This document shows, one piece after another, positions 1,217 through 40,800 of a stretch of DNA of 49,139 nucleotides. The stretch comes from Cyanophora paradoxa CCMP329. Taxonomy: Eukaryota > Plantae > Glaucophyta. Location of the stretch: positions 1 to 49,139 of the forward strand of contig QPMI01000140.1 in the NCBI GenBank assembly GCA_004431415.1, given 5' to 3'. A program made the translations under genes and the position numbers. The stretch's first letter is position 1; the number at the start of each line of letters is the position of its first letter. The notes under the pieces are model-generated. The model made no database searches. It saw nothing but the letters and a program-made list of their open reading frames with translations, and was not told where the DNA came from.

Positions 1217-2174
1217 CTAAAGAGTAGGAAAGAAATGCAGTCGTTGTACTTCGCAGATCTGTTCCAAATCGAATCTAACTCCGAGAGTTTCTGCCTGCTC
1301 TTGAGCAAGGGGAAAAAGGGAGGTGCTGGGGCAAATCCAGCAGCACGAAAATCTGCCTGAAAACGTAATTGTAGTTGAGCATGTTCTTCCTGCCCTGCGA
1401 CTTGAACATGCTGAAGGGGACCTCCACCAGGGCGAACATCTCCTGCACCCGGTCCATGTCCTCCGCGCTCATCGGAGGCGGGCGCTCGCCCGTGATGCGC
1501 CACTTGATCTGCGCCCAGCGCTCGATGTACTTCTGCTGCTTCAGAGCCCGGAGAACTTGGCGGATATTGTCTTTGCTCCACTCCTTCCCCGCCATGCGCC
1601 TCGCAATAGCTGCCAGCACGTCCTCGGGTACCGGAGAATCCTCCAGGCAGTGCTGCTTAAGTCGCTCGGAAACGTGGTACTTGCGCAGGTAGTTGCTGTG
1701 GAGCTCGCTGACAGCCAGGGGTTGATGGTCCGGATAATAAAGATCCAGGACCAGACCGCAAGCCTTGGCAAACCAGATCCCCATCCAGGTGAACACCAAC
1801 GAGGGCGGTAGAGCTGCAATTTCCGCAGGGACAGCGCTTCGCCTTGGGGGCCTTGGGTGCGGCGGTTGCGCTTGCGGGGCGCTCTCCGGCCCCGAGGTAG
1901 GAGTTGGCGATGGCGGCGGCGGCGGCGGGGTACGGTGCCGGAGTGTCGAAGTCTGGGTCCCCCTCGTCGTGAAGGATGGCGCCGTAGCGCTGGATCTGCT
2001 CGAAGTTTCGGAGGAGGAGATCGATTTCGTTAGAGTCTGCCATTCCTCTGAGTCCTCGTACTGCAGCTGAGCTATTCCCCTGCAGAACCAACAGGTTGGC
2101 TTCTCAGAGGAGAGTGGGTCCCACTTGCAAGTGAGGAAGCACTTGTTGCAGAAGGCGTTGCTCAGGTGATTCAT
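1217..2174 (-). CDS. VLTF3-like (poxvirus A2L family) late transcription factor with Zn-ribbon, frameshifted
   Basis: Zn ribbon CPCGNC...DGDLVCQ.CGLVL. Conserved segments YHVSERLKQ, RKNMLNYNYVFRQIFVLL and PFFPLLKSRQKLSELDSIW. After a frameshift the C-terminus reads QICEVQRLHFFPTL*. The start may be 2043 (MADSNE) or 2174 (extra CxxC...CxxC). Confidence 0.9.
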
Positions 2175-2272: not shown

Positions 2273-3118
2273 ATGCTCAACCTCATCGCGAGGGGCGTGG
2301 CAGCAAACAGGCAAGCCCGGGCACCGAACCCTCACCTCCGCATGGACGCCTCCGGCCGCCGCTCCGGGTAGAGACGCACATCGTGGTGGGCAACATCAAC
2401 GACAAGGTGCTGGCGCCCGACAAGACGTGGTTCCAGAAGGTGCTGGACGCGGCGCCCGTGAGGAAACTGAACGGGGAGGATCGGCCGCAGCGCGAGTCGA
2501 ATTTCATGATCACCATCCAGACCAAACTACAAGCCGCGGAGCAGGGGAGAGGGCTCCAAGGTGCAGGACGCGTTTCACAGGGGCTGGAGGCCCTCTTCTA
2601 CGACGACAGGCAGCTGGCGCGGTGCATAAAGATGGGGTGTACCCGACAAGGCGAACCCCAAGGGCTTCGATTTCAAGTCCGACCAGTACGACACGCACGT
2701 GGAGAAGGGCAACGCGAACATCGGCATCGAGTACGGGCCGCGGTCGGGGCGGCTCCACGCGCACATCCGCTCACGCTGCGTGCACGTACTCGCGCGTGCA
2801 ATTCGACGGCAAGAAGGCGTCGGATTTCCTCATCAAGTTCATGCAAACGGAGGGGCAGGCGGCCTGCCGAATTTCTACAAGGACGACTGGTTCGGGGAGG
2901 AGTACCAGAAGACGGCGGTGCGGCCGATACGGAGAAAGGACGCCCTCGGCATGCAGTGGACGGGCAAGGGACGGGCTACAGGAAGCGAGAAAACCGCCAG
3001 GCAGATGCACGTAGACGTACAAAAATTGCTGCCGCAGAGCAACCTTAAGGATCTGCTGCAGCTGTACATTACGAAGACGGTAGAGGCCCTCGAGACGGGC
3101 GCTGTAAAGCTCGTGTAA
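2273..3118 (+). CDS. HUH-superfamily (rolling-circle Rep-like) endonuclease 1, frameshifted
   Basis: Motif I-like RESNFMITIQT (~2491-2523), motif II IEYGPRSGRLHAHI (~2726-2767) and motif III LQLYITK (YxxK, ~3065), in the canonical order. Confidence 0.8.
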
Positions 3119-15355: not shown

Positions 15356-15994
15356 ATGACTTCCAACTGGTACCAGACCCTCAGCGGCTCACTTGACGTT
15401 GGCAACAACACCAAGGATTTCGCACGCCTACGTGATTCAGGTCGTTCAGAACGCCTACGCCACGCCCAAGATTTATTCCTACCAGCTCTTCTTCGACCCT
15501 CTGAGCCTCAGCGCAGAGGTTATCGAGCTGCTGCACGAATCAGGACTCGTGAAAAAGGTGGCACCTGCCACGGCCACTGCCAACGTCTTGCGCTGTCTCG
15601 AGGTCAAGTTCAGGGAGACGGGGTACGGCCCCACCGTGAACCGGTACCCCAGTTCTTCGAATCTTCCGGGTACGGGAACTTACCAGATGAGGGGTACGCT
15701 CAAGGGCGACGTGCTCTTCACGAAATTCAATCCAAGTCCCGCGACCCTGGGGCCCTCTACACGGGCGGCAACCCACGCGGCTCGACTCTACCCCGCTTCC
15801 CCTTCACCTTTTTCAGGTTCCAGGTCTTCCCCCTCTCCTACGCCGCCGACCAGCCCCACTTCAGCACGGGCGCCAGCCTCTGCGCGGAGCTGCGTGAGTG
15901 CTCGATTTCCTACGCGTACGGCACCGACGCTGACTCTGTGCCTGGGGCCCGCGTCATGAACATCGGTGGCGACATCACCCTCTTTCACGGATAA
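15356..15994 (+). CDS. Beta-rich hypothetical virion protein A (paralog of 16018-16829), frameshifted
   Basis: Shares blocks with the next gene: FFDPLSLSAEVIELLHESGLVKKVAP, RCLEVKF, NPRGSTLPRFPFTFFRF, GASLCAELRE. Confidence 0.6.
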   Translation: MTSNWYQTLSGSLDVGNNTKDFARLRDSGRSERLRHAQDLFLPALLRPSEPQRRGYRAAARIRTREKGGTCHGHCQRLALSRGQVQGDGVRPHREPVPQFFESSGYGNLPDEGYAQGRRALHEIQSKSRDPGALYTGGNPRGSTLPRFPFTFFRFQVFPLSYAADQPHFSTGASLCAELRECSISYAYGTDADSVPGARVMNIGGDITLFHG

Positions 15995-16017
15995 TCTTTC
16001 TCATTTGAGGTCGCAAA

Positions 16018-16829
16018 ATGCCGACCACCTCGGCCACCATCGTGAAGACCGTGTCTGCCGGCTCGATCGTCCCGATTTCTACGGCAACGCTGGGAACGTG
16101 GCCAACGCAGGGACGGACAAGGTGGAGTGGGACGGAAACTACGCCACCCCGCTCACCGTGAGGGTCCAGAATCCCGTCATGTTGCGCGTCACCTCCAACG
16201 ATTTCGAGAATCCCGCCTCCTGCTCCGTGTACGTGTACTTTGACATCGACTCGGGCGTGAGCGCGGATGAGGCGGAGGCGCTCTGGCTCTCGGGCCTCCT
16301 GAAAAAGATAGAGCCCTCTGTGCCTGATCGGCCCGCCATTCGCGTGCTCGAACTCAAGTTCACCGCTAACACCGCCCTCACTCGCAAATTCGGGAATGGT
16401 GCGAATCCGAACATCAAAACGCATTTAGATGGCGCCCTCATCGATGCCACACACAAGACCACGCAGGCCGTTCCCTTTGAGATGTACAACCTCTGGAAGA
16501 TGACCGCAAAGGAGATGATGACGAATGCCACCACGGGCGGCGCCTCGGGTACCGATTATTCATACGGCGCCTCGAATCCCCGTACCCAGGTCTGGCCCCG
16601 GCTCCTCTTCACGAAATTCACTTTCAAATTGTACAACAACATCGCCGGAATGCCTACCTCTGGAATGGTCGTGGGCTCTACCCTCATGGCCGAACTAATT
16701 GAGGCAGAGGCGGACTACACGACTGCGACTACCAACTCGACAGCGCCAGGCGCCGGAGCCGAAGTTTACGTGGCCTGGGAAACGGTCGGTCGCGAGTACG
16801 ACACCAAGATTCACACCACTAGCGTCTAG
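16018..16829 (+). CDS. Beta-rich hypothetical virion protein B
   Basis: AAAATG at 16018 (MPTTSATIVK, then a frameshift). YFDIDSGVSADEAEALWLSGLLKKIEP, RVLELKF, NPRTQVWPRLLFTKFTF, GSTLMAELIE. Confidence 0.65.
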
Positions 16830-17182
16830 ACTGGCTAAGCTGCATTAGCACCTGTGTCGCCTCCATCATCTCCCGAATCTCCTCGCTCTTCTCCTGTAAA
16901 TTGGCGTACCCCCTCCTCTTCTTGCGAATCTCCGACATTGATGCCCAGCGCAGGTTCTCCCTCCTGTAGTCCAGCGGGTTGCCGTTGATGTGTTCCACGT
17001 AGCGTCCACGTGGCGACTTCCCGAGGATCAGCTGGAGAGGTAGTGCTTGCGCCCTCCAAACGTCTTGCTCACCCTGTCCCTGTCCACTCTCCAGGGAAAC
17101 TCCAAGGCACTCGGGGTACGTCCGAGTTGACCAGGACGTTGTAGGCGACGTCTTGCGAGTCGGTGCACCGGAGCAGGGCCAT
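16819..17182 (-). CDS. HNH_3-type (I-HmuI-like) homing endonuclease domain protein, probably catalytically degenerate; not in the ORF track
   Basis: TTTTCT motif upstream of an AAAATG at 17182. Manual translation: MALLRCTDSQDVAYNVLVNSD...FPWRVDRDRVSKTFGGRKHYL.QLILGKSPRGRYVEHINGNPLDYRRENLRWASMSEIRKKRR...QSRR*. Confidence 0.75.
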
Positions 17183-17206
17183 TTTGCCCTAGGTTCAGAA
17201 AAACCT

Positions 17207-17285
17207 GGGACTTGGGACTTGGGACTTGGGACTTGGGACTTGGGACTTGGGACTTGGGACTTGGACTTGGGACTTGGGACTTGGG
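17207..17285 (+). repeat. (GGGACTT)n heptamer array, copy 1 (11 units, one with GG)
   Basis: Read directly; bounded by CCT on the left and GGGAAGAGTT on the right. Confidence 0.97.
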
Positions 17286-17436
17286 AAGAGTTGAAACCCA
17301 GGTCCCGGCCCAGACTTTCTCCAGGATCAGAAATTTGTCAGACAAGTCAGGTGAGTTTTTCTACCGACTTTTTTACTCCTACCACTCCTCATACTCTTTT
17401 TTACTCGTAGTCTTTTTTACTCGTAGTCTTTTTTAC

Positions 17437-17628
17437 TCGTATCCCATCTCGTACCCTCCTTCTCTCGACATCTCACACGAAAACTCCTACCCCTCTTCAC
17501 ATCCGTTTTCGGTTGCATACTCTCGTGAGCTTTCATGTCCAGTATCATGCTACAAGTCGTACACCAGTTCAGACTCTACCTCGCTTGAAATCTCACCTGG
17601 AATGTCACCAGAAACGTCATATGCAGAT
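17437..17628 (+). repeat. Degenerate 12-bp-period array: 16 units of TC+N10
   Basis: TC at 17437, 17449, 17461 ... 17617 without exception. Preceded by 16-bp CTTTTTTACTCGTAGT repeats. Confidence 0.85.
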
Positions 17629-17728
17629 TTCCGTACCCCTCTACATGTCTGCCCGGTGGTTAGGGACTTGGCGCGGCAAACTCTCAGATCCAGAGAGATT
17701 CTGGGCCCAGACCCTGAGTCTAACTCTT

Positions 17729-17780
17729 CCCAAGTCCCAAGTCCCAAGTCCCAAGTCCCAAGTCCCAAGTCCCAAGTCCC
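17729..17780 (-). repeat. (GGGACTT)n heptamer array, copy 2 (7 units), inverted relative to copy 1
   Basis: CCCAAGT x7 on the + strand, with the same AACTCTT/CCCAGG boundaries as copy 1. Confidence 0.97.
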
Positions 17781-17854
17781 AGGATCGCGCCAAGTCGTAA
17801 CTGAATAGTCGGCCAATTTTTACAAGTATGTACAATGGAATGACGCAATACTAT

Positions 17855-18916
17855 TTACAGCATCTCAAAGTCAGAGTCATCGTCATCGGAAACCAACTCA
17901 ATGAGGCCCTCGGGCGCCGACTTAAGGGGAATGCGGGGAAGGGACTGCGCTGCCTGCACCAAGTCCTGCCGCTCGCGCTCGCGCTGCGCCGCCAAGGCCG
18001 CTGCCGCCTCTGCCTCGCGCTGCTGCTGAGCCTCGATGCGCGCCTTGAGCTCGGCCGCCTCCTTCTGCTTGCGCTCGGCGATCCGCGCCTTGTTGATCTG
18101 GTACTGGACAAGGCGCTCGTGGCGCCGCTTGCGCTCCAACTCCTTGCGGAGCTCGTTGCAGAGGACGCGCTTCTCAATGGTCTTGACGTGCTGAGTCAGG
18201 CGCTCGCTGTAGTGTGACGTCACGCGAGAACGGGCAATGCCGGCGCCGAGCTTCAAGTCCTTCTCGTGTGCCTTGGCGGGGTCCTTGACGCGCTCGGAGT
18301 TGTCGGTGAATGACGTAGTCTCCATGAACTTCTTCTTGACGATTGACTTGGTCTTGATAATGCGGCGCTTGCGAGTCGGGTTTTCGTTGTCGCCTTCAGA
18401 GTCAGAAGACGACTCAGAGTCGTATGGAATCGGCACGTCAAAGTCGATGAAGTCGTTGATGTCAGACTCGACGTCAGAGGCCTCGGACTTGGCGTCATCG
18501 GCGGGCTCGGGGCGGGCTCGGCGACGGGCTGAGGGGCAGATGACGACGATGACGGAGGGGGTAATTCGTGAAGACTTGAGGGGGTAGGCCCAGGCGAGCG
18601 TCTCGGCAGCAGACTCGGCGAAAAGCTTGGGGTCGCCCCAGCCGTTGGCGGTCTTGACCCAGCCGGGACGGGGGCACGTCGACGGGGGCTCGGGCTTGGG
18701 TTGCTTGGACTTGGATTTCTTGGCCTTGGACGTGAAGGCGGACTTGGGAGAAGTTGCACTTCGGGGCCAGTGGCGCGTAAGATGCATAATTGTAGATGTA
18801 CCCCAGAGCGTCGGCGCGCTGCTCCATCTCAGGGTAGCCCCTTGAGTGCCACCGGAGTTAGCCCACGTTGCTTGGACAAAGGCGAAGTCCTCGGCAAGCT
18901 CAGCGGGAATCGACAT
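17855..18916 (-). CDS. Hypothetical nuclear protein: acidic tract, NLS-like RKRR, coiled coil, C-terminal SIM-like motif
   Basis: ATG at 18916 (MSIPAELAEDF) immediately after a splice-acceptor-like tract. Ends LIELVSDDDDSDFEML*. Confidence 0.65.
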   Translation of the reverse strand: MSIPAELAEDFAFVQATWANSGGTQGATLRWSSAPTLWGTSTIMHLTRHWPRSATSPKSAFTSKAKKSKSKQPKPEPPSTCPRPGWVKTANGWGDPKLFAESAAETLAWAYPLKSSRITPSVIVVICPSARRRARPEPADDAKSEASDVESDINDFIDFDVPIPYDSESSSDSEGDNENPTRKRRIIKTKSIVKKKFMETTSFTDNSERVKDPAKAHEKDLKLGAGIARSRVTSHYSERLTQHVKTIEKRVLCNELRKELERKRRHERLVQYQINKARIAERKQKEAAELKARIEAQQQREAEAAAALAAQRERERQDLVQAAQSLPRIPLKSAPEGLIELVSDDDDSDFEML

Positions 18917-19255: not shown

Positions 19256-19726
19256 TCACCCTGGTAGTGCCCTCTCAAAGGGATTTTCGAAGCCGTACAA
19301 TTCTTGGTAAGTCTCGTAATCCGGGCTGTACCCCCTCACAATCTGCGGGAGCCCCATTGAAAGCCTCCGTCTATCCTCTCTCAATTCCCTGCGGAAAAGT
19401 CTACGGTCTTCTCGAGCTTCGCGTGTCACGCCAGCTGGGCGTGGTCTATGATTGTTAGGGTTGTCGTAGCCTGGTCCCACCAGCCTCACGAAATTTTCGC
19501 GTATGGCCTCGGGGAGGCTCTGGAAACGGCTCGTCGCGTGGAACTCAATCCATTCATTGAATCGACGCGGATATTGACGGATGACTTCAAGCACGCCCTG
19601 TGTGTTGGGCTCTGGTGTTACGTCGGGGATGTCATGTCCCGTGAGGTGCCAACGCCAGAACTCGCGCAACCTCTCGAATGCCATATTCAACTCAAAGGGA
19701 AAATCGTAATAGAGATTGCCTGACAT
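19256..19726 (-). CDS. Hypothetical viral protein, 156 aa
   Basis: Intact ORF MSGNLYYDFPFELNMAFERLREFW..., preceded by TTTTCG-N13-ATG. Confidence 0.65.
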   Translation of the reverse strand: MSGNLYYDFPFELNMAFERLREFWRWHLTGHDIPDVTPEPNTQGVLEVIRQYPRRFNEWIEFHATSRFQSLPEAIRENFVRLVGPGYDNPNNHRPRPAGVTREAREDRRLFRRELREDRRRLSMGLPQIVRGYSPDYETYQELYGFENPFERALPG

Positions 19727-19784
19727 TTTTCTCCCCGTCCGAAAATTTCCCCGCTTTTGGGTCCAGACTCTGATTCCAACTCTT

Positions 19785-19843
19785 CCCAAGTCCCAAGTCC
19801 CAAGTCCCAAGTCCCAAGTCCCAAGTCCCAAGTCCCAAGTCCC
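19785..19843 (-). repeat. (GGGACTT)n heptamer array, copy 3 (8 units)
   Basis: CCCAAGT x8 with the same flank (GGGTCCAGACTCTGATTCCAACTCTT) and CCCAGG end. Confidence 0.97.
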
Positions 19844-21280
19844 AGGTCACATTTTTCTCCCATTTTGACTCGAGATTCTGACCAAGTCCAAATCCGGGCC
19901 CGGGATTCGAACCCTCGTTTTCGATCGATTTCACGCGTGAAAACGGCACTTTTCGGCCTTTTCCGATTTTTCCTTTCTCGCGATCGCATTAATGTCCCCG
20001 ATCTCGAAATCGCGATCGAAAAGGGTCGCGATCGGGAGAAAATCGCGATCGCCAGGGTCGTGATCGCCGCGATCGCCAGCCTCGGAGGGGGTACCCCCAC
20101 AGCTGTTGCGGCGGTTATAAGAACCTCCGCAATCCAAGCGTCACTTCCGAGTCTCGAGCTCTCGGAGTTGACTTTTCGCGTTTGGCCCATTGATGGCCCT
20201 CCTATATAGATACATATGTACGATTTCGACGTCTCGAACTCATCGGTCGCGTTTGTTTACGAAGTCTAGGTTTAATGTCATATATCGCCATTGCAGCGCA
20301 CCGGGTTGTCAAGAGAGCATATCGGATACAGTCCGCGTATCCACAAGAAGTCTCATGTTCCCTTGGAACTTCTACGAATGCTGCGCGACATCGGTTTCGA
20401 TCAGAAGAAGGATTCCAGAAAGTCCGGAGTCCGGAATAGTACTCGCTCGCCCTCAGTTGATTTAACCGATTGAATATATATATGCCGTGCAACATCTAAA
20501 GTGTCGACGTCCCCGATCGCGAGTGCGGCACGGAACGCACGGGCGCCGCAGCTGGATCCAACGCGGTGGAGGAGGACGAAGGTTGTGCCGGTGGGGCTCA
20601 GAGAGGGCGCAGCGGCGAGCGCGGACAGCACGCGAGAGTGGTGGCCCGAGCCCGCGCTCTCGTAATCCTCCTCCGCATCGCTGGCGTCCAGGTCCGAGGG
20701 CGAGGGCGAAGGGGGGCAGGACACCAGATCGGCCATCGAGCGGGGGCTGCAAGAGCCAGCGCTGCGTGTGCTTGGGTCCGTGGCCGCAACACGGCTGGCC
20801 ATGGCGCTGGCTATATTTGTTGGCTGGCCCGCGCAATCCGCGGTTGCCTGGGGCGCGGGCCCGGGGCGCTGGCGACTGCGGCGAGAACTTAAGCTGCACA
20901 TCATATCCGCCGCGTTCTCCATGCGAAGATCTAGCAAGACCAGTACGTATCTGTGCGGGCCGCCAATTGCAAGGAATACTTCAAGGCTTGCGCCCGGCTG
21001 CAGATCTAGACAGCAGCGCTCAGCGGCTAGATATCGATCGCCTTCTCTCCGTAGCCGCCGCGCGCGTGCGAATCCAGTGTCGAATCCAGCTGCAGCTGCA
21101 GGTCGATCGATCTCGCTTGAAGAGTCGCTTCCGCCCGCCGGGCCGGCGGCCGGCGTACGTATATCATAGTATATACGTATACGTACAGCAGCAGTCCGCC
21201 GGGCTGCGGCGACTCGGAGCCTCGGAGCAGCGGCTCAGCGAAGCCGCGATCGATATCCCGCGGCCGGGAGTCCGCACGAG

Positions 21281-23454: not shown

Positions 23455-24250
23455 CCGCCACCGCCCGCCGGCGCGCGCCGCGCCTTCGCCCCGTGCGGCG
23501 AGCCGCGCCGCCGCCGGCCCGGCGGCCGCGTCCCCGCCCCGTGCGGCGAGCTCCTCCGACGCCCGCAGCGTCTCCGCCCTGTGCGGCGACCCCCGCTGCC
23601 GTCCGCCGCGCCTTCGCCCCGGGCTACGAGCCCCGCTGCCGCCCGCCGCTCCGCCCCGGGCGGCGAGCCGCGCCGCCGCTCCGGATCCGCCCCGGGCGCC
23701 GGCGGCGAGCCGCGCCGCCGCCCGCTGCGCCTTCCGCCCCGTGCGGCGAGCCCCGACGCCGCCCGCCGCGCCTCCGGCCCGCCCGGCGAGCCGCGCCGCC
23801 GCCCGCCGCGTCCCCGCCCCGCCCGGCGACCCCCGCCGCCGCCCGCCGCGCCTCCGGCCCGCCCGGCGACCCCCGCCGCCGCCCGCCGTGCCTACGCCCC
23901 GCCCGGCGAGCCGCGCCGCCGCCCGCCGCGCCTCCGCCCCCGCCGGCGAGCCGCGCCGTCGCTCGCCGCGTCTCCGTCCCGCCCGACGAGCCCCGACGCC
24001 GCCCGCCGCGCCTCCGGCCCGCCGGCGAGCCGCGCCGGCCCCGCCGCGCCTCCGCCCCGTGCGGCGAGCCGCGCCGTCGCTCGCCGCGCTTGCGTCCCGC
24101 CCGGCGAGCCCCGACGCCGCCCGCCGCGCCTCCGCGCCGCCCGGCGTGCCGCGCCGCCGCCCGCCGCGCCTCCGCCCCCGCCGGCGAGCCGCGCCGCCGC
24201 CCGCCGCGCTTGCGCCCCGCCCAGAGAGCCCCGCCGCCGCCCGCCTCGGC
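23455..24250. repeat. Extremely GC-rich minisatellite (~36-bp unit) inside the hAT element
   Basis: Repeated GGCGAGCCGCGCCGCCGCCCGCCGCGCCTCCGCCCC-like units. Confidence 0.9.
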
Positions 24251-24989
24251 CTCCTCTCCCTCCCCCGTTGACTTAGTCACTCCCCCCCGCCCCTCGGCGA
24301 CAGCAGCTAGCAAGTAAATATGATCATGAGTAAGAGCAAGCGCACTGCGGCAAGCGATATACAGCTGAATGGGGGCGGAGTGACCGTGCCGGGATGTGGA
24401 AGAGAACGTACTCGGGGCGGGCCGCGGGCTGCAGATGATCATGATCATGAAGCTGCAGATGCAAAGTCACTGTTAGTCGGCAGCCGGCCCCCCAAAAGAA
24501 CTAGATAGGTTCTATTTAAGCTTATATTACATTTTATTACGTTAGTATATGCTGCAGGGGCGATGCTGAAGCGCTGGGAATAAAATGGTCCGAAACTCCC
24601 CTCCTTCCAGCCCAAAGTGACTAGACCAACTGTACGGCGTAGTCTAGCCTTCTGGCGACTCTAGAAGCCGTACTTTTCTGCCACTTTATTCAGGCAGCCC
24701 GCGCTCTTAGGATAGCGTTATAGATGCGTTTGAATAGATATTATAAGATATATTATAGCGTTTAAGGGCCCTCCCGCAACGCCCTGATTGCCGATTCACT
24801 CATTCACTCTCTGGAACCAGCCAGGCTCTCTGGCGGGCTGGAATCGACAGCTACACATCTTTGGAAAGTAATTCAAGCGAGCTTTAATAATATGTTCATC
24901 GTTACACATGCACGGCTCAAAACAGACAGAAACAACTCGGCGGCGGCATGGGGGGGGAGGTGCGTGGAGGGGGCATCTGCAGCTGGCTA

Positions 24990-25690
24990 CGGCGAGGCGC
25001 ATTCGCCGCCCGCGGCGCGTCGGGCCGCGAGCGCCCGCTGCGAAGGAGATTACATCGGCCTGAAGTGCGCGGAAGCACGCGTGGCGCCCCCGCCCCCGCC
25101 CCGCGGCCGCCGCACCTTGGCTCGGCCGCAGTCCAGCCTGGTATCGGTAACGACGAGGCGCGCTCGCCACACGCGGCGCGTCGGGCCGCGAGCGCCCGCT
25201 GCGAAGGAGATTACATCGGCCTGAAGTGCGCGGCAGCGCGCGCGGCGCCCCCGCCCCCACCACGCGGCCGCCGCACCTTGGCTCGGCCGCAGTCCAGCCT
25301 GGTATCGGTAACGACGAGGCGCGCTCGCCACACGCGGCGCGTCGGGCCGCCAGCGCCCGCTGCGAGGGAGATTACATCAGCTCAAAGCGCGCGGAAGCGC
25401 GCGCGGCGCCCGCGCCCCCGCCCCGCGGCCGCCGCACCTTGGCTCGGCCGCAGTACAGCCTGGTCTCGGTTACGACGAGGCGCGCTCGCCGCCCGCGGCG
25501 CGTCGGGCCGCCAGCGCCCGCTGCGAGGGAGAATACATCAGCTCAAAGCGCGCGGAAGCGCGCGCGGCGCCCGCGCCCCCGCCCCGCGGCCGCCGCACCT
25601 TGGCTCAGCCGTAGTACTAGTCCAGCCTGGCCTCGGTTACATGTACAACGCGGCGCGCTTCGAGGAGGCGCGCTCGCCGCCCGCGGCGCG
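24990..25690. repeat. 161-bp tandem repeat, ~4 copies, inside the hAT element
   Basis: GGAGATTACATC-type anchor at 25045, 25206, 25367 and 25528. Confidence 0.9.
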
Positions 25691-28439
25691 CCGCGGGAGC
25701 GTAGTGTGGCTACAAAGAGCGTAGAGTCAACAGGGAGGGCGCACGTGGCAAGCTTAAGACTCCCGCGGGGCGCGGCCACCGGCGCCGCACCTTCGCTCGG
25801 CGGCCGGCAATGGAGAGCCGGCCTTCGCTGGACACATGGAAGAGCATCCTGCGGCAATGCTCCAACGTTGCGTGCATGTTCTAGCCGCCCTAGCGGTCCG
25901 ATCATGATCAGCGGCGCGGCCGCTGCGCGACGTCGACCTGCACGGGAACGCGCAGCGGGAGGCCAAGAGCGCACGCCATAAGCTATAGCCCTCACATCGA
26001 TCCAGTGATTCAGGAGGACGAAGGCTGCGTCGCACCTGGCACACAAAACGCCGTCGACCGGAGCTGCGCCAGAGAAAGTACGGGGGCCGACGAGGATGAT
26101 GCACACGATAGCTATGGAGCTAACCGAGCAAACACAAGACTAAGACCGCGCCGCTCAACTGGCTGCCGACCGAGTTCGGGGCGCCGCTGACAGAAATGTC
26201 TCAGTCGGAAGCGAACCCGTGTTTTTTTAGCGGTTTTTCGGTGCAACCGGTACCCCCCCAGCGACCCGGGTCGGACCCGTGGGTCACGGGTCAGGGGGTC
26301 GACCCGACCCGCGGGTCGCGGGTCCAGGTTTTAGGACCCGGGCCGGAGCCCTAGACTCGGTCTTCGCAGGGCTATTGTATGGCGGAGACGGGACTACCCC
26401 TACAAATTCTCGGCTTTAGCAGGCGGGAAATATTTAGTAGATCGCCCAAAACCTTTTAGTACTATAAATATGCAGCCTACTAGTACTAAATATTTATAGT
26501 TCTACAGTAGTACGTACGTATACGCGTACGTACGACGCGTATATATATATTTTAACGCGTTTATAAATATTTCATTTCAGCTGCAATCACCGTTCGAACG
26601 CTTATATAATTACTAGTACTGCAAACGTACGAATATCCGCCAGCACTTTATTCGCCAAAACCCGAAAATCCTGGCGGAAATTAGTCCGCCAGCATCTTGA
26701 TTTCGCCACCATGTCACCTTCGCCATAGACGAGTCAGCGGCTAGTACCCCTCTCTCCATACAAAAGCTCAATTCGCCAACGTCAAATATTCGCCAACGCA
26801 CGGGTCTGGCGAAAATAGTCGAAATTATCCGCTGGCGAACTGTTGAACAGTCGACTTCCTCTTTTTAGGTTCCGATCGCGAGTTCTTTAGATAATTGCCG
26901 AAGTACTCGGTACTGGGGCGTTCAGAAAGAGCTTGAAGAATCAGAGAAGATTGGCCTGGATATCACGTGGATTTGGCCAATTGCAAGCATCATCTGGGCC
27001 CTAATTTTTGTTCTTTAATTACCGTACGGTACCGGCCCGCCTCCCCCCGCGCCGGGCCCGGCCGGGCCCCCCGGCGCCCCCGCCCCTCCCACCTCCCTCC
27101 CGGCCCTTCACGCCGTCCCCCCCCCCGGGCCCCTCCCCCCCTCCCGCCCCCCCCCCCCCCCCCCCCTCCCATGGACTTCCCATATGCATGCATATGGCCG
27201 GGGCGCCCGCGGCCAGCTGCAGCCTCTGGCAGCGCCGGCGAGCCCTCGAGCTTCCCGGCCCACCGAAGCGCGGCCGCGCGCGGCGCCGGGCGCGGCCCAT
27301 ATGCGCATGCATCGCCCGGCCGCGGCCCGCGAGCTCCGTGCACCATGACCAACTGGGATCGGATGCATACGATCATGATCATGAGTCAAGTGTACGTACG
27401 CGTGGCCCAGTGGCAATGGGCCGACCGCGGGGGCGACGTGCACGTGGGGGCGCGGGCGGCTACGTATACATCATGGCATATCCGATGATCTAGATCTCGC
27501 GATCGAGATTCGAGCCTGGTATTTAGAGGCAGAGGTGGCGAAAGAGGTCTAGAGTGCCGCAGTGCAATGCGGCATGCGCAGCTGAGAGGGGAGCCGGGGC
27601 TGGGGGGGGGGGGGGGGGGGTGGGGCCGGGGAGGCCGGCGCCGACGGGCGGATCCCGAGGTCGACGCCGAGCGGGGAGGGGGGAGGAGGGAGGAGGGGCG
27701 GGAGGCCGCGGCCGGGGACGCGGGCGGGCGGGCGGAAGAGCGCTAGCGCTAGCGCTGTCGCGCGCGATCGGTCCGACGGTCCATGGCCAGTCGTTGACGT
27801 CACGGATCTGGATTGAGAGCTATATATATTATCTGCGCATGCCACGCATCGCGATGAATTCGAAAGCCGCTGAGCTTAAAGCTTGCACCCTTGCGCTTAG
27901 CTTGTACACGTGCACGTGTCGTGCGGCGACACCGCCCCACGTGCACGTGCACACCCCTCTTAAGCTTTACTAAAAAGTTCAACGGTTAATTATAACTTAG
28001 TAAGCTAGCTATAGATCTCTCCGCTTAAAAAGCTTCCTCCGGATCCGGACTCCCGCCCTCGAGTTCTGCGGCCGAGTTCCGAGCTTACCGAGTCCGGATC
28101 CGCCCTGCGCATGCATCGATATCGATATCGATATATATCGAGTCCCGGGTCCCATATATATGTGCATTTTATACTCAGTGTGACTATGATATGATTCGTT
28201 ACGTTGCCCCAGAATTACAGGGGCGCTGCCGACGCCCGCCGCCGGCGTACGTGCACCGCACAGCCTCGCGGCACAGGACCGCAGTTAGCATGTAGTTAAC
28301 TCGCATGCGGGCTCGCATGCAATTGCAAACGACAAAAAACAAATCTTTTTCTTTGGGGCGAGAAAATGAGGGAGTGGGCTGGAGGGGGGTACGACTCGTA
28401 CGAGTGCCTTGCGGCGCCACATTGAGGCACGAGCCCAGA

Positions 28440-30941
28440 ATGCATCCCGCTCCTTGCGGCTTTGTGTTCCTGGGCTTACCGCAACACCCATCGAGGTGCT
28501 TAGACCTGCGTACATCGCGCCGGCGCAGGCTGAACGAGCGGCGCAGCGGCGTTTACGTTGGCGTGAGCTCCTTGGCGTGCAGGCGTAGCGCGCCACGCTT
28601 TCGAAGGTGGGACGCTGTGCTTGGGGCAATCGCGGTGCCGAGCCCGAGTCGCGCCGGTGAGGTTGAACCCACGTCGACCGTCGCTTGCAGGCCCGGCGCT
28701 GGACATTGCGAATTCAGTGGCTCACTCCGCGCGCGGCGACATGCCCGCGCGGGGCGCGCGGCAGCAGCACGCCGGCGTCGGACGCGGGAGAGGCGCGGCC
28801 GCGCCCGCCAGCGGTCGCCCAGGCGCGCATGCAGGCGGAAGAGCGTTCTCTGGACGATCCCGTGAGCGCGCTGCCCGGCGTGGGACCCGTGAAGGCCCAG
28901 CGGCTGCGCAGCTGGGGCCTCGGGACGGTCCGCGGCCTCCTGGAGTGGGTCCCAAGGGACCGCGTCCACGCCGGCGACCGCGCGAGCGTCGCGGCGCTCG
29001 CGGGCATGGGCGGCTCGCGCGCCACGGTCGTCGGGCGCGTCTCCCGCGTCCGCGCGGCGCCGGCGCGCAGTCGGCCCCGCCTTGTCGTCCTCACGCTCGC
29101 CATCTCCGACGACTCCGGCGCCTCCGTCGAGGTCGTCAAGTTCTACAACGGTACCCCCGCCGCCTCCCTTCTCGCCGCGTTCCAGTAAGCCGGCCCCCGC
29201 CCCTTCTTTCCCGCGCGGCCGCCTTCCGTCCGTCGACGCCCCTGCGGCGCAGGCTGGGTACGCTGGTGTCCGCGTCGGGCACCGTGGAGGTGGCCGGCCC
29301 GGCGGACGCGCAGCAGGGGGGGTACCGCAAGCGCCCGGGGAGCGTTTCTCTCAAGTCGGCCGAAGTCAACATTCTCCGCCCGGTCCGCAGGGGCGACTTC
29401 CCGCCCGGCCGCCCCTCCGGCCCACCTCCGCGGGGCCGCGTAGGCGTGGGAGGCGGGCCCAGACGCGGCCGACCCTGAACCGCCCCGCGTCACGCCCCTG
29501 TACCGCCTCCCGTCGGCACGTTCCACGTTCCTGTACACCCCTCCCGCCCGCCGTCCTCCCCCCTGAGCTCCGCGCAGGCGCCGGGGGAGGCGGGGAGCGG
29601 GCGCCGCGGAGCCGCGGCGGACCTGCGCCTGCTCGGGGCGGCCATACAGGCGGCGCTGCCCTACGCCGAGCTCTTCGTGCGGTCCTACCTCTGCTTCGCG
29701 AAATGCGGCGCCGCCGGGACTCGAACCGGGCGCCGTCCCCGCGCGCGCAGGAGGACCCGCTGCCCCCCGACATCCTGGAAAAGCTGGGCCTACCCCCCCT
29801 CTCCGAGGCGATGCAGAACGTGCACGGGGCCGCCGGTCCCGACGGTGCGGCAGCCCTCTACGCGCCCCCTCCCTCCCCCCCCCCCTTCTCCTCGTTTTCA
29901 GCGGGACTCGAACCCGCCCCCCAGAGATGGAGGCGGCGAGCAGACGGCTCGTCTTCGACGAGCTCCTCGCCCTCCAGCTCGGTACCCCCCCGCCGCTCCG
30001 CCCCCTCTCCTCCCTTAGCGCAGTCGCCGGCAGCCCTGCTGCTTGGCAAGGCCAAGCGGAGGTCCAGGCGCTGCTCTGTACCCCCCTCGCCGCCCGGCGA
30101 GCTCATTCGGCGGGTCTGCCGTACCCCCTCTCCCCCCGCCTGTGCGTACCAGGCGGCGCCCTCGCCCTTCGCGCCTGTGCGGGACCCTCCGCCCCGCCCC
30201 GGCCCGCCCCTTCCTCCTCCTCAGAAGCGGCGGCGTAGGAGGAGGAGGCGAAGCGGGTGAGACGGGGGAGGAAAAGGAGGGGGCCGGGATCGACGCCGAG
30301 GCGGCCGGGTACCTAATGGCCGGCGCCGAGGGCCCCGAGGGGGCCCCCGCCCCGCACGGTCCGCCTCGCCGCCCCGGCCCGGCCCGGCCCGGCCCACCCG
30401 GGGCCCTTCCGACCGTGCTTGGTGGCTTTGCAGTCCTCTCTATGTCAGCAACGCCGATCCCCCGAACGTAAGCGCCCCCCCCCCCCCCCCCCCCGCCCTA
30501 TTTCCTTCTCAGTTCTGTACCCCCTCCTTATCTTCGCCGCAGGCTGGCGCTTGCCCTGCACGGCGATCTTGACATCTCCGTCCTGGACGAGGTACCCGCC
30601 GTGGCCCCCTGTACCCCCACCCCTGAGCCGCGTCTGAACCGCGTCTGAGCCGCGTCTGAATCTGAATCGCCGCCTTCAGATGCCTTCCGGTCGCAAGCCG
30701 ATCCGCACCCGCCTTCTGCGCCCCGAGGCGCGCCCGCGCGCTTCCTGTACCCCCTTGTCCGCCTCCTCACCGGGGTACAGGAGCGGGAGGACGCGTACAG
30801 CGTGATCCGCGAGCACTGCGCCCGCGGGCACCAGGTCCGCGACCATTCCCGTACCCCCTACCTTCTCCAGCCCACGGATTTCGGCCGCAGGCGTACGTTC
30901 TCTTCCCGCTGGTCGAGGAGAGCGAGGCGATGGCGCACCTG
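28440..30941 (+). pseudogene. recG: Truncated duplicate of RecG (lacks helicase motifs I-II and the C-terminal half)
   Basis: Near-identical to 37819-41378, but ~39530-40590 ([17 protein letters not shown] exons) is missing at ~30140. Similarity ends after [11 protein letters not shown]. Confidence 0.85.
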
Positions 30942-31249
30942 GTATGCCGTATGTATTACCCCTCTAGCTACCGGGGGGGCCCGTCTAGGGCGCTCCAGAC
31001 GCCTCGCGGCGGCCCCTCAGCGGGGCCGCCCTTGTGCCCTCCTCTTCCTTCTCGTTCTGCGGCGGGGCCCGAGGCGGGCGGCCTCGCCCCAGCCAGAGCG
31101 GCCCTGGGTCCTCCCCCCCTCCCTTCCCCCCTCCGCCACCCCACCCCCGGGCCGCGGGCGCGGGCAGCCGCCGCCCGCCGCGGGGATGGGCCGGGACGCG
31201 GCGCGCGGCAGCCGCCGGGCCGAGCCCGAAGCCACGGGGCGGGGCAAGC

Positions 31250-36863: not shown

Positions 36864-37818
36864 GCCACCGCCGGCGCCGGCGGCGCCGCCGCGCCCCGGC
36901 CCGGGCCGGCCGGGCCCCTTGATTCATGATCAAGCAAGCTCCTCCGGATCCTACCGCGACTGCCGCCGGCGCCACCCTTCGAATTCTGGACGTCGTGATC
37001 ATGAGTTCGGAGGAGCACGGCCTTGGACTCGCTTGAAGCCTCGGATCCGGAGCCTCGGAGCGTCATGATCAGGGGCCGAGAAGGCCGCCGGAGCTCGAGC
37101 GCGCGGCGGCGCCGGCCGCGCGCGGAGGCTGATCACTGACTAACACTGAGTCATGACGGAGCGCGCGGCGCCGGACATGTACAGGGGCCGGGGTTGCGGC
37201 GCTGCTAGCGCTGGATCCGGAGACGGCAGCGTCGACGTCGGCGGCGGCGCAGGATCCAGACGATCGCGACTCCCGCGACTCGGCGACGCTGAGATTTATA
37301 ATTACCGTACCTCCGGCACAGGCGCCGGGTCGTCCGATCGCGATGCTTGCAAATTGATGCACATGCATATGATCGCGGCGGATTGCGACTAAAATTTTGC
37401 GCATGCGACTCTGATGCGAGTCAAAATTTGCGACCCGCGAGATGCATATGCGCATGCATATGGTCCGGCTCATGATCATGATCAGGGATCATCGGATCGG
37501 ATTCGGATCCGGAGCTCGCGATCGAGCCCAAGGAGGCCAAATTAAATTAAACTTGAAATAACAAGCTTAAGCATGCGCACGCGAATACGTATTCACCACC
37601 TGCACGTCGCCGTGAAGTCGCACGCGTACGTGCACCGCACAGGACCTCGGAACGGGTTAGCATGCAATAAACTCGCGTGCGGGCTCGCATGCAATTGCAA
37701 ACGAGAAAAACAAATCTTTTTCTTGGGGACGAGAAAAATGAGGGTGTGAGCTCTTGAGGGGTATATACATAAGTGCTTGGACGTTCGACACGGCGCCACA
37801 TCGAGGCACGAGCCCGGA

Positions 37819-40800
37819 ATGCATCCCTCTGCTTGCAATTGCGGCTTAAGCTTTGTGTTTCCGGGCTTAGTGCGACACCCATCGAGGTGCCTGGCCTGCG
37901 TACATGGCACCGGCGCAGGCTGAACGAGCGGCGCAGCGGCGCTTACGTTGGCCTGAGCTCCTTGGCGTGCAGGTGTAGCGCGCCACGCTTTCGAAGGTGG
38001 GACGCTGTGCTTGGGGCAATCGCTGCGGTGCCGAGCCCGAGTCGCGCCGGTGCTTGAAACCACGTCGACCGTCGCTTGCAGGCTCGGCGCTGGACGTCGC
38101 GAATTCAGTGGTTCACTCCGCGCGCGGCGACATGCCCGCGCGGGGGGCGCGGCGGCAACGCGCCGGCACGGGACGCGGGGCAGGCGCGGCCGCGCCCGCC
38201 AGCGGTCGCCCAGGCGCGCATGCAGACGGAAGAGCGTTCTCTGGACGATCCCGTGAGCGCGCTGCCCGGCGTGGGACCCGTGAAGGCCCAGCGGCTGCGC
38301 AGCTGGGGCCTCGGGACGGTCCGGCGCCTCCTGGAGTGGGTCCCCCGGGACCGCGTCCACGCCGGCGATCGCGCGAGCGTCGCGGCGCTCGCGGGCATGG
38401 GCGGCTCGCGCGCCACGATCGTCGGGCGCGTAACCCGCGTCCGCGCGGCGCCGGCGCGCAGTCGGCCCCGCCTTGTCGTCCTCACGCTCGCCATCTCCGA
38501 CGACTCCGGCGCCTCCGTCGAGGTCGTCAAGTTCTACAACGGTACCCCCGCCTCCTCCCTTCTCGCCGCGTTCCAGTAAGCCGGCCCCCGCCCCTTCTTT
38601 CCCGCGCGGCCGCCTTCCGTCCGTCGACGCCCCTGCGGCGCAGGCTGGGTACGCTGGTGTCCGCGTCGGGTACCGTGGAGGTGGCCGGCCCAGCGGACGC
38701 GCAGCAGGGGGGGTACCGCAAGCGCCCGGGGAGCGTTTCTCTCAAGTCGGCCGAAGTCAACATTCTCCGCCCGGTCCGCTGAGGCGCCTTCTTGCCCGGC
38801 CGCCCCTCCGGCCCACCTCCGCGGGGCCGCGTAGGCGTGGGAGGCGGGCCCAGACGCGGCCGACCCTGAACCGCCCCGCGTCACGCCCCTGTACCGCCTC
38901 CCGTCGGCTCGCTGTTCCCCGTTCCTGTGCCCCCCTCCCGCCCGTCGTGCTCCCCCCTGAGCTCCGCGCAGGCGCCGGGGGAGGCGGGGAGCGGGCGCCG
39001 CGGCGCCGCGGCGGACCTGCGCCTGCTCGGGGCGGCCATTCAGGCGGCGCTGCCCTACGCCGAGCTCTTCGTGCGGTCCTACCCCTGCTTCGCGAAATGC
39101 GGCGCCGCCGGGACTCGAACCGGGCGCCGTCCCCGCGCGCGCAGGAGGACCCGCTGCCCCCCGACATCCTGGAGAAGCTGGGCCTACCCCCCCTCTCCGA
39201 GGCGATGCGGAACGTGCACGGGGCCGCCGGGCCCGACGGTGCGGCAGCCCCCCCCCCCCCCCCCCCCCCCCCCGCGCCCCTTCGCGCTTTCAGCGGGACT
39301 CAACCCGCTCCCCAGAAATGGAGGCGGCGAGCAGACGGCTCGTCTTCGACGAGCTCCTCGCCCTCCAGCTCGGTACCCCCCCGCCGCTCCGCCCCCTTCT
39401 CCTCCCTTAGCGCAGCCCCGGCAGCCCTGCTGCTTCGCAAGGCCAAGCGAAGGTCCAGGCGCTGCTCTGTACCCCCTTCGCCGCCCGGCGAGCTCATTCG
39501 GCGGGTCTGCCGTACCCCCTCTCCCCCCTCGCCCGCCACCTCCCCCACCTTCCCAGCCCAAGCGATCTAGCTCACTCCGGTACCCCCAGTTCCGGGAGTC
39601 CCTTCCCTTCGAGCTCACCGGCGCCCAGCGCCGCGTCCTCGATGACGTACCCCCTCTCCACCCGCTTCCTCTACCTCCCCCTTGCCCCCCGACCCACGGC
39701 GGTTGTATCCCCGGCGCGTGCAGATCACGAGGGACCTGGCTGGGGAGGCACCGATGTCCCGGGTACGCCCGCCCTGCCTCTGCCTCCCCCTTGCCCGCGA
39801 GCTCTCACCCCCCGCGGGGGGTACGTGCACGCAGCTGGTGATGGGGGACGTAGGGTCGGGCAAGACCGTGGTCGCTGTGGCTGCCCTCCTAGGAGCCGTC
39901 GAAGCCGGCGCCCAGGCGCGCCCCCGTCTGCCCCGCCCGCTGCCTTCGCCCCCTCCGCGGGCCCCTGACCCGCCCGCCCCGCCCCGCCCCGCCCCGCCGC
40001 GCTCCAGGGAGCCCTGATGGCCCCAACCGAGGTCCTCGCCGCCCAGCACTTTCGCAACGTCGAGCAGTGGTGCCGGGTACGCGATATCGACGCCGCTGTC
40101 CTCCTCGGCCCGACCTTGTACCCGGGCTGGCAGCCCCTGGGCGTCTCTGTGGCGCTTCTGACGGGATCGGTCACGGGCCGGGCCCGGGCCCGCGTGCTCG
40201 AGGGGATTCGAACCGGCGCCACCGCCGTGGTCGTGGGGTGCGAGGGGGCGGGCTCCTCTCTACCCCCCCGCTTCCGCCGCCCCTGTCTGACGGGTCAGTC
40301 TGCCACGGGGGTATGCAGGACCCACGCTTTGTTGGAGCCTAGCGTCCAGTTCCGTCAGCTGGGCCTCTGCGTCATCGGTCCGCGTACCCCCCTCCCCCAC
40401 GCCCCCGGGTACCGTCCGATTCGACCGCCGCACGCCCGCCCCCGCCCCCGACGCAGACGAGCAGCACCGATACGGGGTACCGGTCCCTTCGTTCGCTCGA
40501 GGAAGCGGCGCTCCTCACTTACCGGGCGACGGGGCGGCCGGGGGCCCAGGTGGAACAGCGCTCGCGCCTCACTTCAGCGGCCGCCGGCGGCCAGGCGGCG
40601 CCCTCGCCCTTCGCGCCCGTGCGGGGCCCTCCTTCCGCCCCGCCCCGCCCCTTCCTCCTAAAAAGTTGCGGCGCAGGAGGAGAGAGGCGGGGCGGGGGAG
40701 ACGGGGGATGAAAAGGAGGGGGCCGGGATCGACGCCGAGGCGGCCGGGGACCTAATGGCCGGCGCCGAGGGCCCCGAGGGGGCCCCCGCCCCGCACGGTC

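What the first reader, a model, noticed from the sequence alone, without database searches (positions are those of the whole stretch)
17377..17628. Cryptic 12-bp-period array: invariant TC followed by variable 10-mers, enclosed by the inverted heptamer arrays
TC occurs at exact 12-nt spacing 16 times in a row (17437-17618). The fillers differ (TCGTATCCCATC, TCGTACCCTCCT, TCTCTCGACATC, TCACACGAAAAC ... TCATATGCAGAT), and position 6 is a pyrimidine in 15 of 16 units. To the left it grades into near-identical 16-bp units. An ordinary decayed minisatellite would not keep two positions and the phase perfect while the rest diverges. The + frame is open (Ser every fourth residue) but uses only TCN codons and has no clear start; the - frame has stops. 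Hypotheses: a phased protein-binding or nicking scaffold (origin), a record of sequentially added short sequences, or an S-x-x-x repeat peptide or ncRNA. A perfect CAG|GTGAGT donor lies just upstream at 17348-17356.
Basis: partly seen in the sequence, partly recalled or inferred. Interest (0 to 1): 0.85.

Follow-up and report, generated by a model that had tools for sequence, protein, structure and literature searches.

The report
Serine-phased 12-base repeat in endogenous virus
Sixteen 12-base units that all begin with TC sit between two inverted repeat arms inside a virus-like element carried in many copies in one protist genome; the copies differ by whole units of the same family, so this is likely a small serine-repeat gene or its remnant and not a record of captured DNA.

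Summary
In detail: 16 in-phase TC dinucleotides at 12-nt spacing, against a next-best run of 10 in 49 kb. The array fills part of the loop of a ~580-bp imperfect palindrome with heptamer arms, in a multi-copy endogenous Mriyavirus/PLV-like element (VLTF3).

Contigs of public runs show three variant classes, A ~59%, B ~31%, C ~10%. C keeps the 12-nt register, has 11 units instead of 16 and shares the five right-hand units. Its visible private units are near-copies of A units (0 of 20000 shuffles reach this), which argues against capture of foreign DNA.

Best reading (0.5): a Ser-x-x-x tetrapeptide repeat, active or recently lapsed. The frame is open, the one TC exception gives Ala, a stop follows in B and C, and an AAG sits where a sister module has its ATG. 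Against: no ATG, no homologue, no significant codon signal, and the upstream 16-mer count shifts the frame in B.

Main rival (0.3): a register-locked cis element in the palindrome loop. No relatives of the array were found outside this organism.

The parts
17437..17628 (+). Core array: 16 units of 12 nt, each starting TC; reads Ser-x-x-x in an open + frame
17569..17628 (+). Five right-hand units shared by variants A, B and C (4 differences in C)
17437..17568 (+). Eleven left-hand units; replaced in variant C by six units in register (129 skipped, 69 letters between, net -60)
17377..17400 (+). Two more TC starts (17377, 17389) in phase with the core in this copy
17389..17441 (+). T-rich 16-nt units; one unit fewer in the variant-B-like contig of run X15; acceptor-like TAG ending at 17410 and 17426
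   Evidence: acceptor reading is inference from the sequence
17631..17642 (+). Degenerate 17th unit, 2 nt out of phase, has lost the T
   Evidence: sequence, comparison by eye with unit 4
17644..17646 (+). Codon that is a TAA stop in the Ser frame in variants B and C, read through in this copy
17344..17356 (+). AAG at the same 51-nt offset from its module as the ATG of the 19726 gene, in the Ser frame in this copy; followed by the donor-like site (GT at 17351)
17204..17353 (+). Left arm: heptamer array plus ~65-nt module pointing into the array
17680..17783 (-). Right arm: inverted copy of the module pointing into the array
19724..19847 (-). Third copy of the module, directly upstream of the ATG of ORF 19726-19256
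16819..17182 (-). HNH_3-like gene, in two frames in the window; EH..Y in place of the usual DH..N motif (motif recalled)
17855..18916 (-). Multi-copy viral ORF with variable N-terminus and conserved C-terminus; no family match
15356..16829 (+). Two paralogous ORFs; the second resembles single-jelly-roll capsid clusters (score 0.84, lead only)
1275..2174 (-). VLTF3 homologue, marks the element as Nucleocytoviricota/Mriyavirus-like
   Evidence: PF04947, E 1.2e-14
2383..3118 (+). HUH-endonuclease-like ORF in two frames (LHAHI and Y-x-x-K motifs by eye; no profile hit)
   Evidence: motif definition

Best explanation
The array is a tandem repeat of related 12-base units that gains and loses whole units between virus copies, and it is likely the coding sequence, active or recently lapsed, of a short protein with serine at every fourth residue. 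Shown: the register, the unit-wise change in copy number, and the paralogy of the units. Inferred: slippage or unequal exchange in 12-nt steps keeps the phase; selection for Ser keeps TC while the third base and the other three codons drift; turnover is concentrated at the left end. Inferred and weakest: the left module is a duplicated gene start whose ATG is now AAG, so expression would need a non-AUG start or splicing from the donor at 17351 across the T-rich 16-mers. The peptide is predicted to be unstructured; a phosphorylation or glycosylation scaffold is a guess.
For: The period is a multiple of three. TC fills codon positions 1-2 of a fourfold box and all four bases occur at position 3. 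The Ser frame is open in A and stays open under the B and C changes listed. The only in-register TC exception seen, in 1 of 2 private C units whose start is visible, is T>G, giving Ala. A stop follows five codons after the last unit in both B and C. AAG-TCA-GG lies at the same 51-nt offset as ATG-TCA-GG of the sister module's gene, in the Ser frame. 4 of 8 array SNPs are synonymous against 25-33% expected (p 0.11-0.25, not significant). The shared units differ less between A and C than the flank does (4 of 61 vs 16 of 90, p 0.053). The window's only AGGTGAGT lies just before a pyrimidine tract ending in TAG, which would absorb the non-triplet 16-mer variation (noticed post hoc). Precedent for coding tetramer repeats in a large DNA virus: the B602L central variable region (PMC7674587, passages).
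Against: There is no in-frame ATG upstream (first at 17602, inside the array), and no listed contig differs at the AAG. An open frame is weak evidence: P 0.11 under filler shuffles, 0.33 under column-preserving shuffles, and the +1 frame is open too. There is no third-position excess among 12 close unit pairs (4.75 vs 4.33 differences per column) and no BLOSUM excess (p 0.36). The B-like contig lacks 16 nt upstream, which takes the AAG out of the Ser frame, and neither simple splice model puts both A (first acceptor) and B in frame (worked by hand). The peptide has 0 hits among 1.84 billion representatives, no Pfam match, and no gene model among 19 hits, 7 of which were read and matched through the translated heptamer.
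Confidence: 0.5

Rival explanations
1. A non-coding, register-locked cis element. The inverted arms would extrude as a hairpin or cruciform, the heptamers would act as iterons, and the pyrimidine-rich loop would present TC every 12 nt to a ring-shaped or polymerising protein (helicase, packaging ATPase, HUH initiator), much as Rho reads YC dimers.
For: The arms fold as DNA at z -12 (0 of 20 shuffles). The loop is C>G (95 C, 34 G of 291). Rho's primary site binds YC dimers with 9-13-nt linkers (PMC6144790, passages). Mriyaviruses are proposed to replicate through an HUH initiator (PMC11253617). There is no start codon and no codon signal among paralogous units. Out-of-phase units at both ends are tolerated.
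Against: Two bases carry little information. A 12-bp period is off the helical repeat for duplex DNA (established knowledge). Rho tolerates variable spacing, so the analogy does not demand an exact phase. It leaves the triplet period, the open frame, the following stop and the start-offset match as coincidences. The HUH assignment here rests on motifs only.
Confidence: 0.3
2. A non-coding RNA or double-stranded RNA source, transcribed from the two inward-facing modules or as one long hairpin.
For: The third module precedes a real-looking ORF, so the modules may be promoters. One RNA-guess run holds a single unspliced B-like contig over the whole stretch (RNA status not established). RNA fold z -2.0, 3 of 100 shuffles.
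Against: No Rfam match to E 1 over 3501 bases. The fillers have no targets in the window beyond chance. No per-unit structure is predicted.
Confidence: 0.1
3. A neutral, old minisatellite whose TC columns survived by chance.
For: The units are paralogous and turn over at one end, as minisatellites do (recalled).
Against: Invariance has probability ~1e-8 at the conservation of the best filler column (1.3e-3 even at 13 of 16). There is no off-register indel in 16 near-saturated units.
Confidence: 0.07
4. A CRISPR-like record: 10-mers of foreign DNA added one at a time at the left end with a 2-nt TC duplication.
For: Variants share the right-hand five units and differ at the left.
Against: The three visible private pieces match A units at 7 of 7, 8 of 10 and 8 of 9 filler positions; 0 of 20000 shuffled, 0 of 20000 random viral and 3 of 20000 column-profile nulls reach this. 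Fillers are more alike than chance. 1 of 16 fillers has an exact match elsewhere in the window, about the chance rate.
Confidence: 0.03

Closest known systems
Coding tetrapeptide (12-bp) repeats of large DNA viruses, e.g. the central variable region of asfarvirus B602L
   Same: Amino-acid tetramer units of several types, in strain-specific number and order (PMC7674587, passages).
   Different: There the repeat lies inside a long, normally started gene. Here there is no ATG, no homologue, no sequence relationship, and the array sits in a palindrome loop.
Mriyaviricetes and Mriyavirus-like PLV groups
   Same: VLTF3 next to a packaging-ATPase-like gene end, HUH-like motifs, endogenous state.
   Different: Major capsid protein, RuvC, helicase and integrase were not identified in the window part. 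The two of seven text parts of PMC11253617 that I read describe no such array.
Rho utilisation sites, (YC)N9-13 repeats
   Same: YC dimer every 12 nt on a C>G strand.
   Different: Bacterial RNA signal with loose spacing; this is a eukaryotic virus with exact phase and no Rho homologue seen.
CRISPR arrays
   Same: Constant plus variable parts; one end shared between variants.
   Different: The constant part is 2 nt, the variable parts are paralogues of each other, and no integrase or cas gene was seen nearby.
Minisatellites with polarised turnover (recalled)
   Same: Whole-unit gain, loss and shuffling at one end.
   Different: Fillers are near saturation (33% identity) while two columns stay fixed.

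Membership tests
Coding tetrapeptide repeat | 12-nt unit, copy number changes in whole units | tested here: met
   16 vs 11 units, net -60 nt, register kept
Coding tetrapeptide repeat | Open reading frame through the array | tested here: met
   0 stops; chance 0.11-0.33
Coding tetrapeptide repeat | Canonical start codon upstream in frame | tested here: not met
   No in-frame ATG; AAG at the homologous place
Coding tetrapeptide repeat | Excess of synonymous change | tested here: inconclusive
   4 of 8 SNPs synonymous, p 0.11-0.25; no third-position excess among paralogues
Coding tetrapeptide repeat | Transcript or peptide observed | not testable with these tools
   Only contigs, RNA status guessed
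CRISPR-like acquisition array | Spacers unrelated to one another and of foreign origin | tested here: not met
CRISPR-like acquisition array | Polarised difference between variants | tested here: met
   One comparison only, A/B vs C
Ordinary minisatellite | High unit identity, no protected columns | tested here: not met
   TRF does not list it
Rut-like loading site | YC dimers 9-13 nt apart on a C>G strand | tested here: met
   Pattern only
Rut-like loading site | Cognate ring motor binds in register | not testable with these tools
   Needs biochemistry
HUH-type replication origin | Inverted arms with iterated short repeats | tested here: met
   Pattern only
HUH-type replication origin | Defined nick site | not tested
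   No nick-site motif for this virus group appears in the text read
Mriyaviricetes (host element) | VLTF3 | tested here: met
   PF04947 E 1.2e-14
Mriyaviricetes (host element) | HUH endonuclease | tested here: inconclusive
   Motifs by eye; no Pfam, PHROG or PDB hit
Mriyaviricetes (host element) | Packaging ATPase | tested here: inconclusive
   C-terminal piece at the window edge looks A32-like (recalled); no profile hit
Mriyaviricetes (host element) | NCLDV-like double-jelly-roll capsid protein, RuvC, helicase | tested here: inconclusive
   Not found among 26 ORFs scanned; the left part of the element is outside the window
Mriyaviricetes (host element) | Genome of 35-45 kb | not testable with these tools
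   Element cut by the window start; no genome held

The most novel reading that the evidence does not exclude
The palindrome is the replication or packaging origin of an HUH-replicating endogenous virus, and its single-stranded loop is a ruler that shows TC every 12 nt to the subunits of a ring motor: a rut-like loading code in a eukaryotic DNA virus, with lineage-specific unit number and heptamer sequence giving specificity among co-resident copies.
Probability: 0.17. Interest if true: 0.85.

Novelty: new variant of a known kind. Interest (0 to 1): 0.42.

Why it matters
Cis signals and small genes of Mriyavirus-like endogenous viruses are hardly described in what I read. If the array is coding, it is a case of a viral repeat peptide expressed without an AUG or through a host-type intron, or a dated example of how such a repeat decays. 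If it is a cis element, it gives a concrete candidate origin for a virus group whose rolling-circle replication is so far inferred from gene content. Either reading can be tested with data from one cultured protist that carries about 50 natural variants. The CRISPR-like reading, which drove the first score, is close to excluded.

Tried and rejected
Searches for relatives carrying the region found nothing. DNA motifs: viral contigs and metagenome contigs, 0 each. Flanking proteins: viral contigs, metagenome contigs and genome contigs; no candidate was confirmed.

No whole genome is held, so full copies could not be read, and only 30 of the 69 private letters of variant C were seen.

Array peptide: 0 hits, Atlas score 0.75, AlphaFold pLDDT 53 and pTM 0.13 with no secondary structure. 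The fold of the neighbouring capsid-like protein failed (pLDDT 34), so no fold search was run.

No RNA holder is on record. Run X16 laid nothing and run X15 one unspliced contig; neither speaks to expression.

Rfam gave 0 matches and the sigma-70/terminator scan 0. Adjacent units are not significantly more alike than random order (p 0.16). The minus D/E-x-x-x frame looks protein-like but has two TAG stops and no start, so it was rejected as an active gene. The 19-of-30 match of the C letters near 20004 is chance level (second best 18).

Earlier-findings look-ups returned nothing. One search fetched an unrelated paper through a wrong id and was not used. PMC10120064 has 0 occurrences of the five terms searched. 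A survey of how often such periodic arrays in other viruses are coding was not done.

Full report
Observation. TC opens 16 consecutive 12-mers from 17437. A scan of all dinucleotides and periods 4-40 over the window gave a next-best run of 10 among runs with divergent fillers. Autocorrelation peaks at 12, 24 and 36, and the rough chance expectation is 4e-8. The fillers are related but near saturation (3.3 of 10 against 2.56 +/- 0.12), with soft purine or pyrimidine preferences in several columns. Contigs of public runs reproduce the listed variant-A pieces without a difference.

Context. Bases 1 to about 20,150 are a virus-like element. Of 26 ORFs scanned, Pfam gave VLTF3 (E 1.2e-14), Peptidase_S74, fn3 and a weak H_lectin match. 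An HNH_3 gene lies just left of the palindrome. VLTF3 is described as diagnostic of Nucleocytoviricota affinity, and an HUH endonuclease as universal in mriyaviruses (PMC11253617, parts 2 and 3 of 7 read). An ORF here carries HUH-like motifs by eye but has no profile hit, so I call the element Mriyavirus/PLV-like and do not file it.

The element is multi-copy. The right-hand neighbour gene has 28 clusters, 55 member sequences by my sum, and 27 of the 28 are named from one EukProt-style gene set. The left-hand neighbour has 14 clusters, 2 of them from other sources at about 60% identity. All 20 runs that hold the stretch are one organism. The host is likely the glaucophyte Cyanophora paradoxa. 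This rests on the recalled style of the gene names and on a passage that mentions a tail-fibre plus H_lectin gene in one of its PLVs (PMC12220804, passages).

Anatomy. The array lies in the loop of an imperfect palindrome, 17204-17783, whose arms are a heptamer array plus a module of about 65 nt. A third module lies upstream of the ORF at 19726. There ATG-TCA-GG follows 51 nt after the module core; in the left arm AAG-TCA-GG follows at the same 51 nt, and in this copy it is in the Ser frame. The donor-like site overlaps this spot and is the only AGGTGAGT in the window. Its first half may simply be module end, so it is suggestive only. T-rich 16-mers with TAG ends follow, and a degenerate 17th unit lies 2 nt out of phase on the right.

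Variation among copies. Seven runs were laid in two calls (X4 twice), and one laid nothing. Three classes appear, with depth shares of about 56-59%, 30-32% and 9-12% in three runs; depth is only a rough guide to copy number. B differs from the window at 6 of 192 array sites, and its contig in run X15 lacks 16 nt upstream. C shares the five right-hand units with 4 differences and replaces 129 nt by 69, that is five units fewer. The 30 visible letters of C, identical in three runs, stay in register. They match A units 12, 2 or 3, and 2 at 23 of 26 filler positions; 0, 0 and 3 of 20000 nulls reach this. One of the two visible unit starts is GC. None of the 8 array SNPs hits TC, which alone is not significant (p 0.23). 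B and C both have a stop in the Ser frame five codons after the last unit.

What follows. The array evolves by duplication, loss and shuffling of its own units, mostly at the left end, so capture of foreign DNA is close to excluded. Neutral decay does not explain two fixed columns. That leaves constraint at the protein level or at the nucleic-acid level.

For coding: the triplet period, a free third base, the open frame, Ala as the exception, the stop, the start-offset match, 4 of 8 synonymous SNPs (not significant) and lower divergence than the flank (p 0.053). Against coding: no ATG, no codon signal among 12 close unit pairs, a second open frame, the frame shift in B, and no homologue. Each point is weak alone. 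Coding tetramer repeats are a known class in large DNA viruses (PMC7674587, passages), while an exactly phased two-base scaffold has only a loose analogue in rut sites (PMC6144790, passages). I therefore give 0.5 to coding-derived (about 0.3 active, 0.2 relic), 0.3 to a cis element, 0.1 to ncRNA, 0.07 to neutral decay and 0.03 to acquisition. These weights are my judgement.

Novelty. Eight literature searches, read as listings, and passages of six papers gave no description of this array. Only targeted repeats in such viruses, and supplements were not read; the PLV tables of PMC12220804 may list the element. No relative of the region was found in three public collections. The feature is real, constrained and apparently undescribed, but most likely a variant of a known kind. 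Interest 0.42; the cis-ruler reading (0.17) would deserve 0.85.

Noticed in passing
window 19723-19735 and 19849-19861: A 13-bp direct repeat that includes the ORF's start codon brackets the third heptamer module, like a target-site duplication (family D18).
   Followed up: no
window 19978-20075: Six copies of a CGATCG-centred 9-mer, several 15-17 nt apart, near the apparent right end of the element; possible terminal binding sites.
   Followed up: partly
window 17855-18916 (-), P0001-P0028: The N-terminal ~60 residues differ sharply among copy groups while the C-terminal part is near-identical; might co-vary with array or heptamer type.
   Followed up: no
variant C, beyond window 17718: C runs into a 24-letter flank with altered heptamer-like units, so the arm repeat differs between lineages.
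   Followed up: no
window 15356-16829: Two tandem paralogues with a single-jelly-roll-like lead; could be minor capsid proteins or a split capsid gene.
   Followed up: partly
window 16819-17182 (-): The HNH_3-like protein appears to lack usual catalytic residues (motif recalled) and may be a DNA binder next to the heptamer arm.
   Followed up: partly
upstream of several viral ATGs (485, 3140, 6034, 6998, 15316, 17182, 19726): A T-run followed by C lies about 15-25 nt before the start codon; candidate promoter motif (by eye).
   Followed up: no
window 28245-30137 vs 37624-39528; 30149-30969 vs 40591-41409; 23466-24254; 24989-25615: Host-side duplications (92% over 1.9 kb, 86% over 0.85 kb) and GC-rich tandem arrays of 40 and 161 bp.
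   Followed up: no
window 1-20150: Many viral ORFs are frameshifted, and gene models of sister copies break at different places, which suggests long-read indel errors and not real decay (inference).
   Followed up: partly
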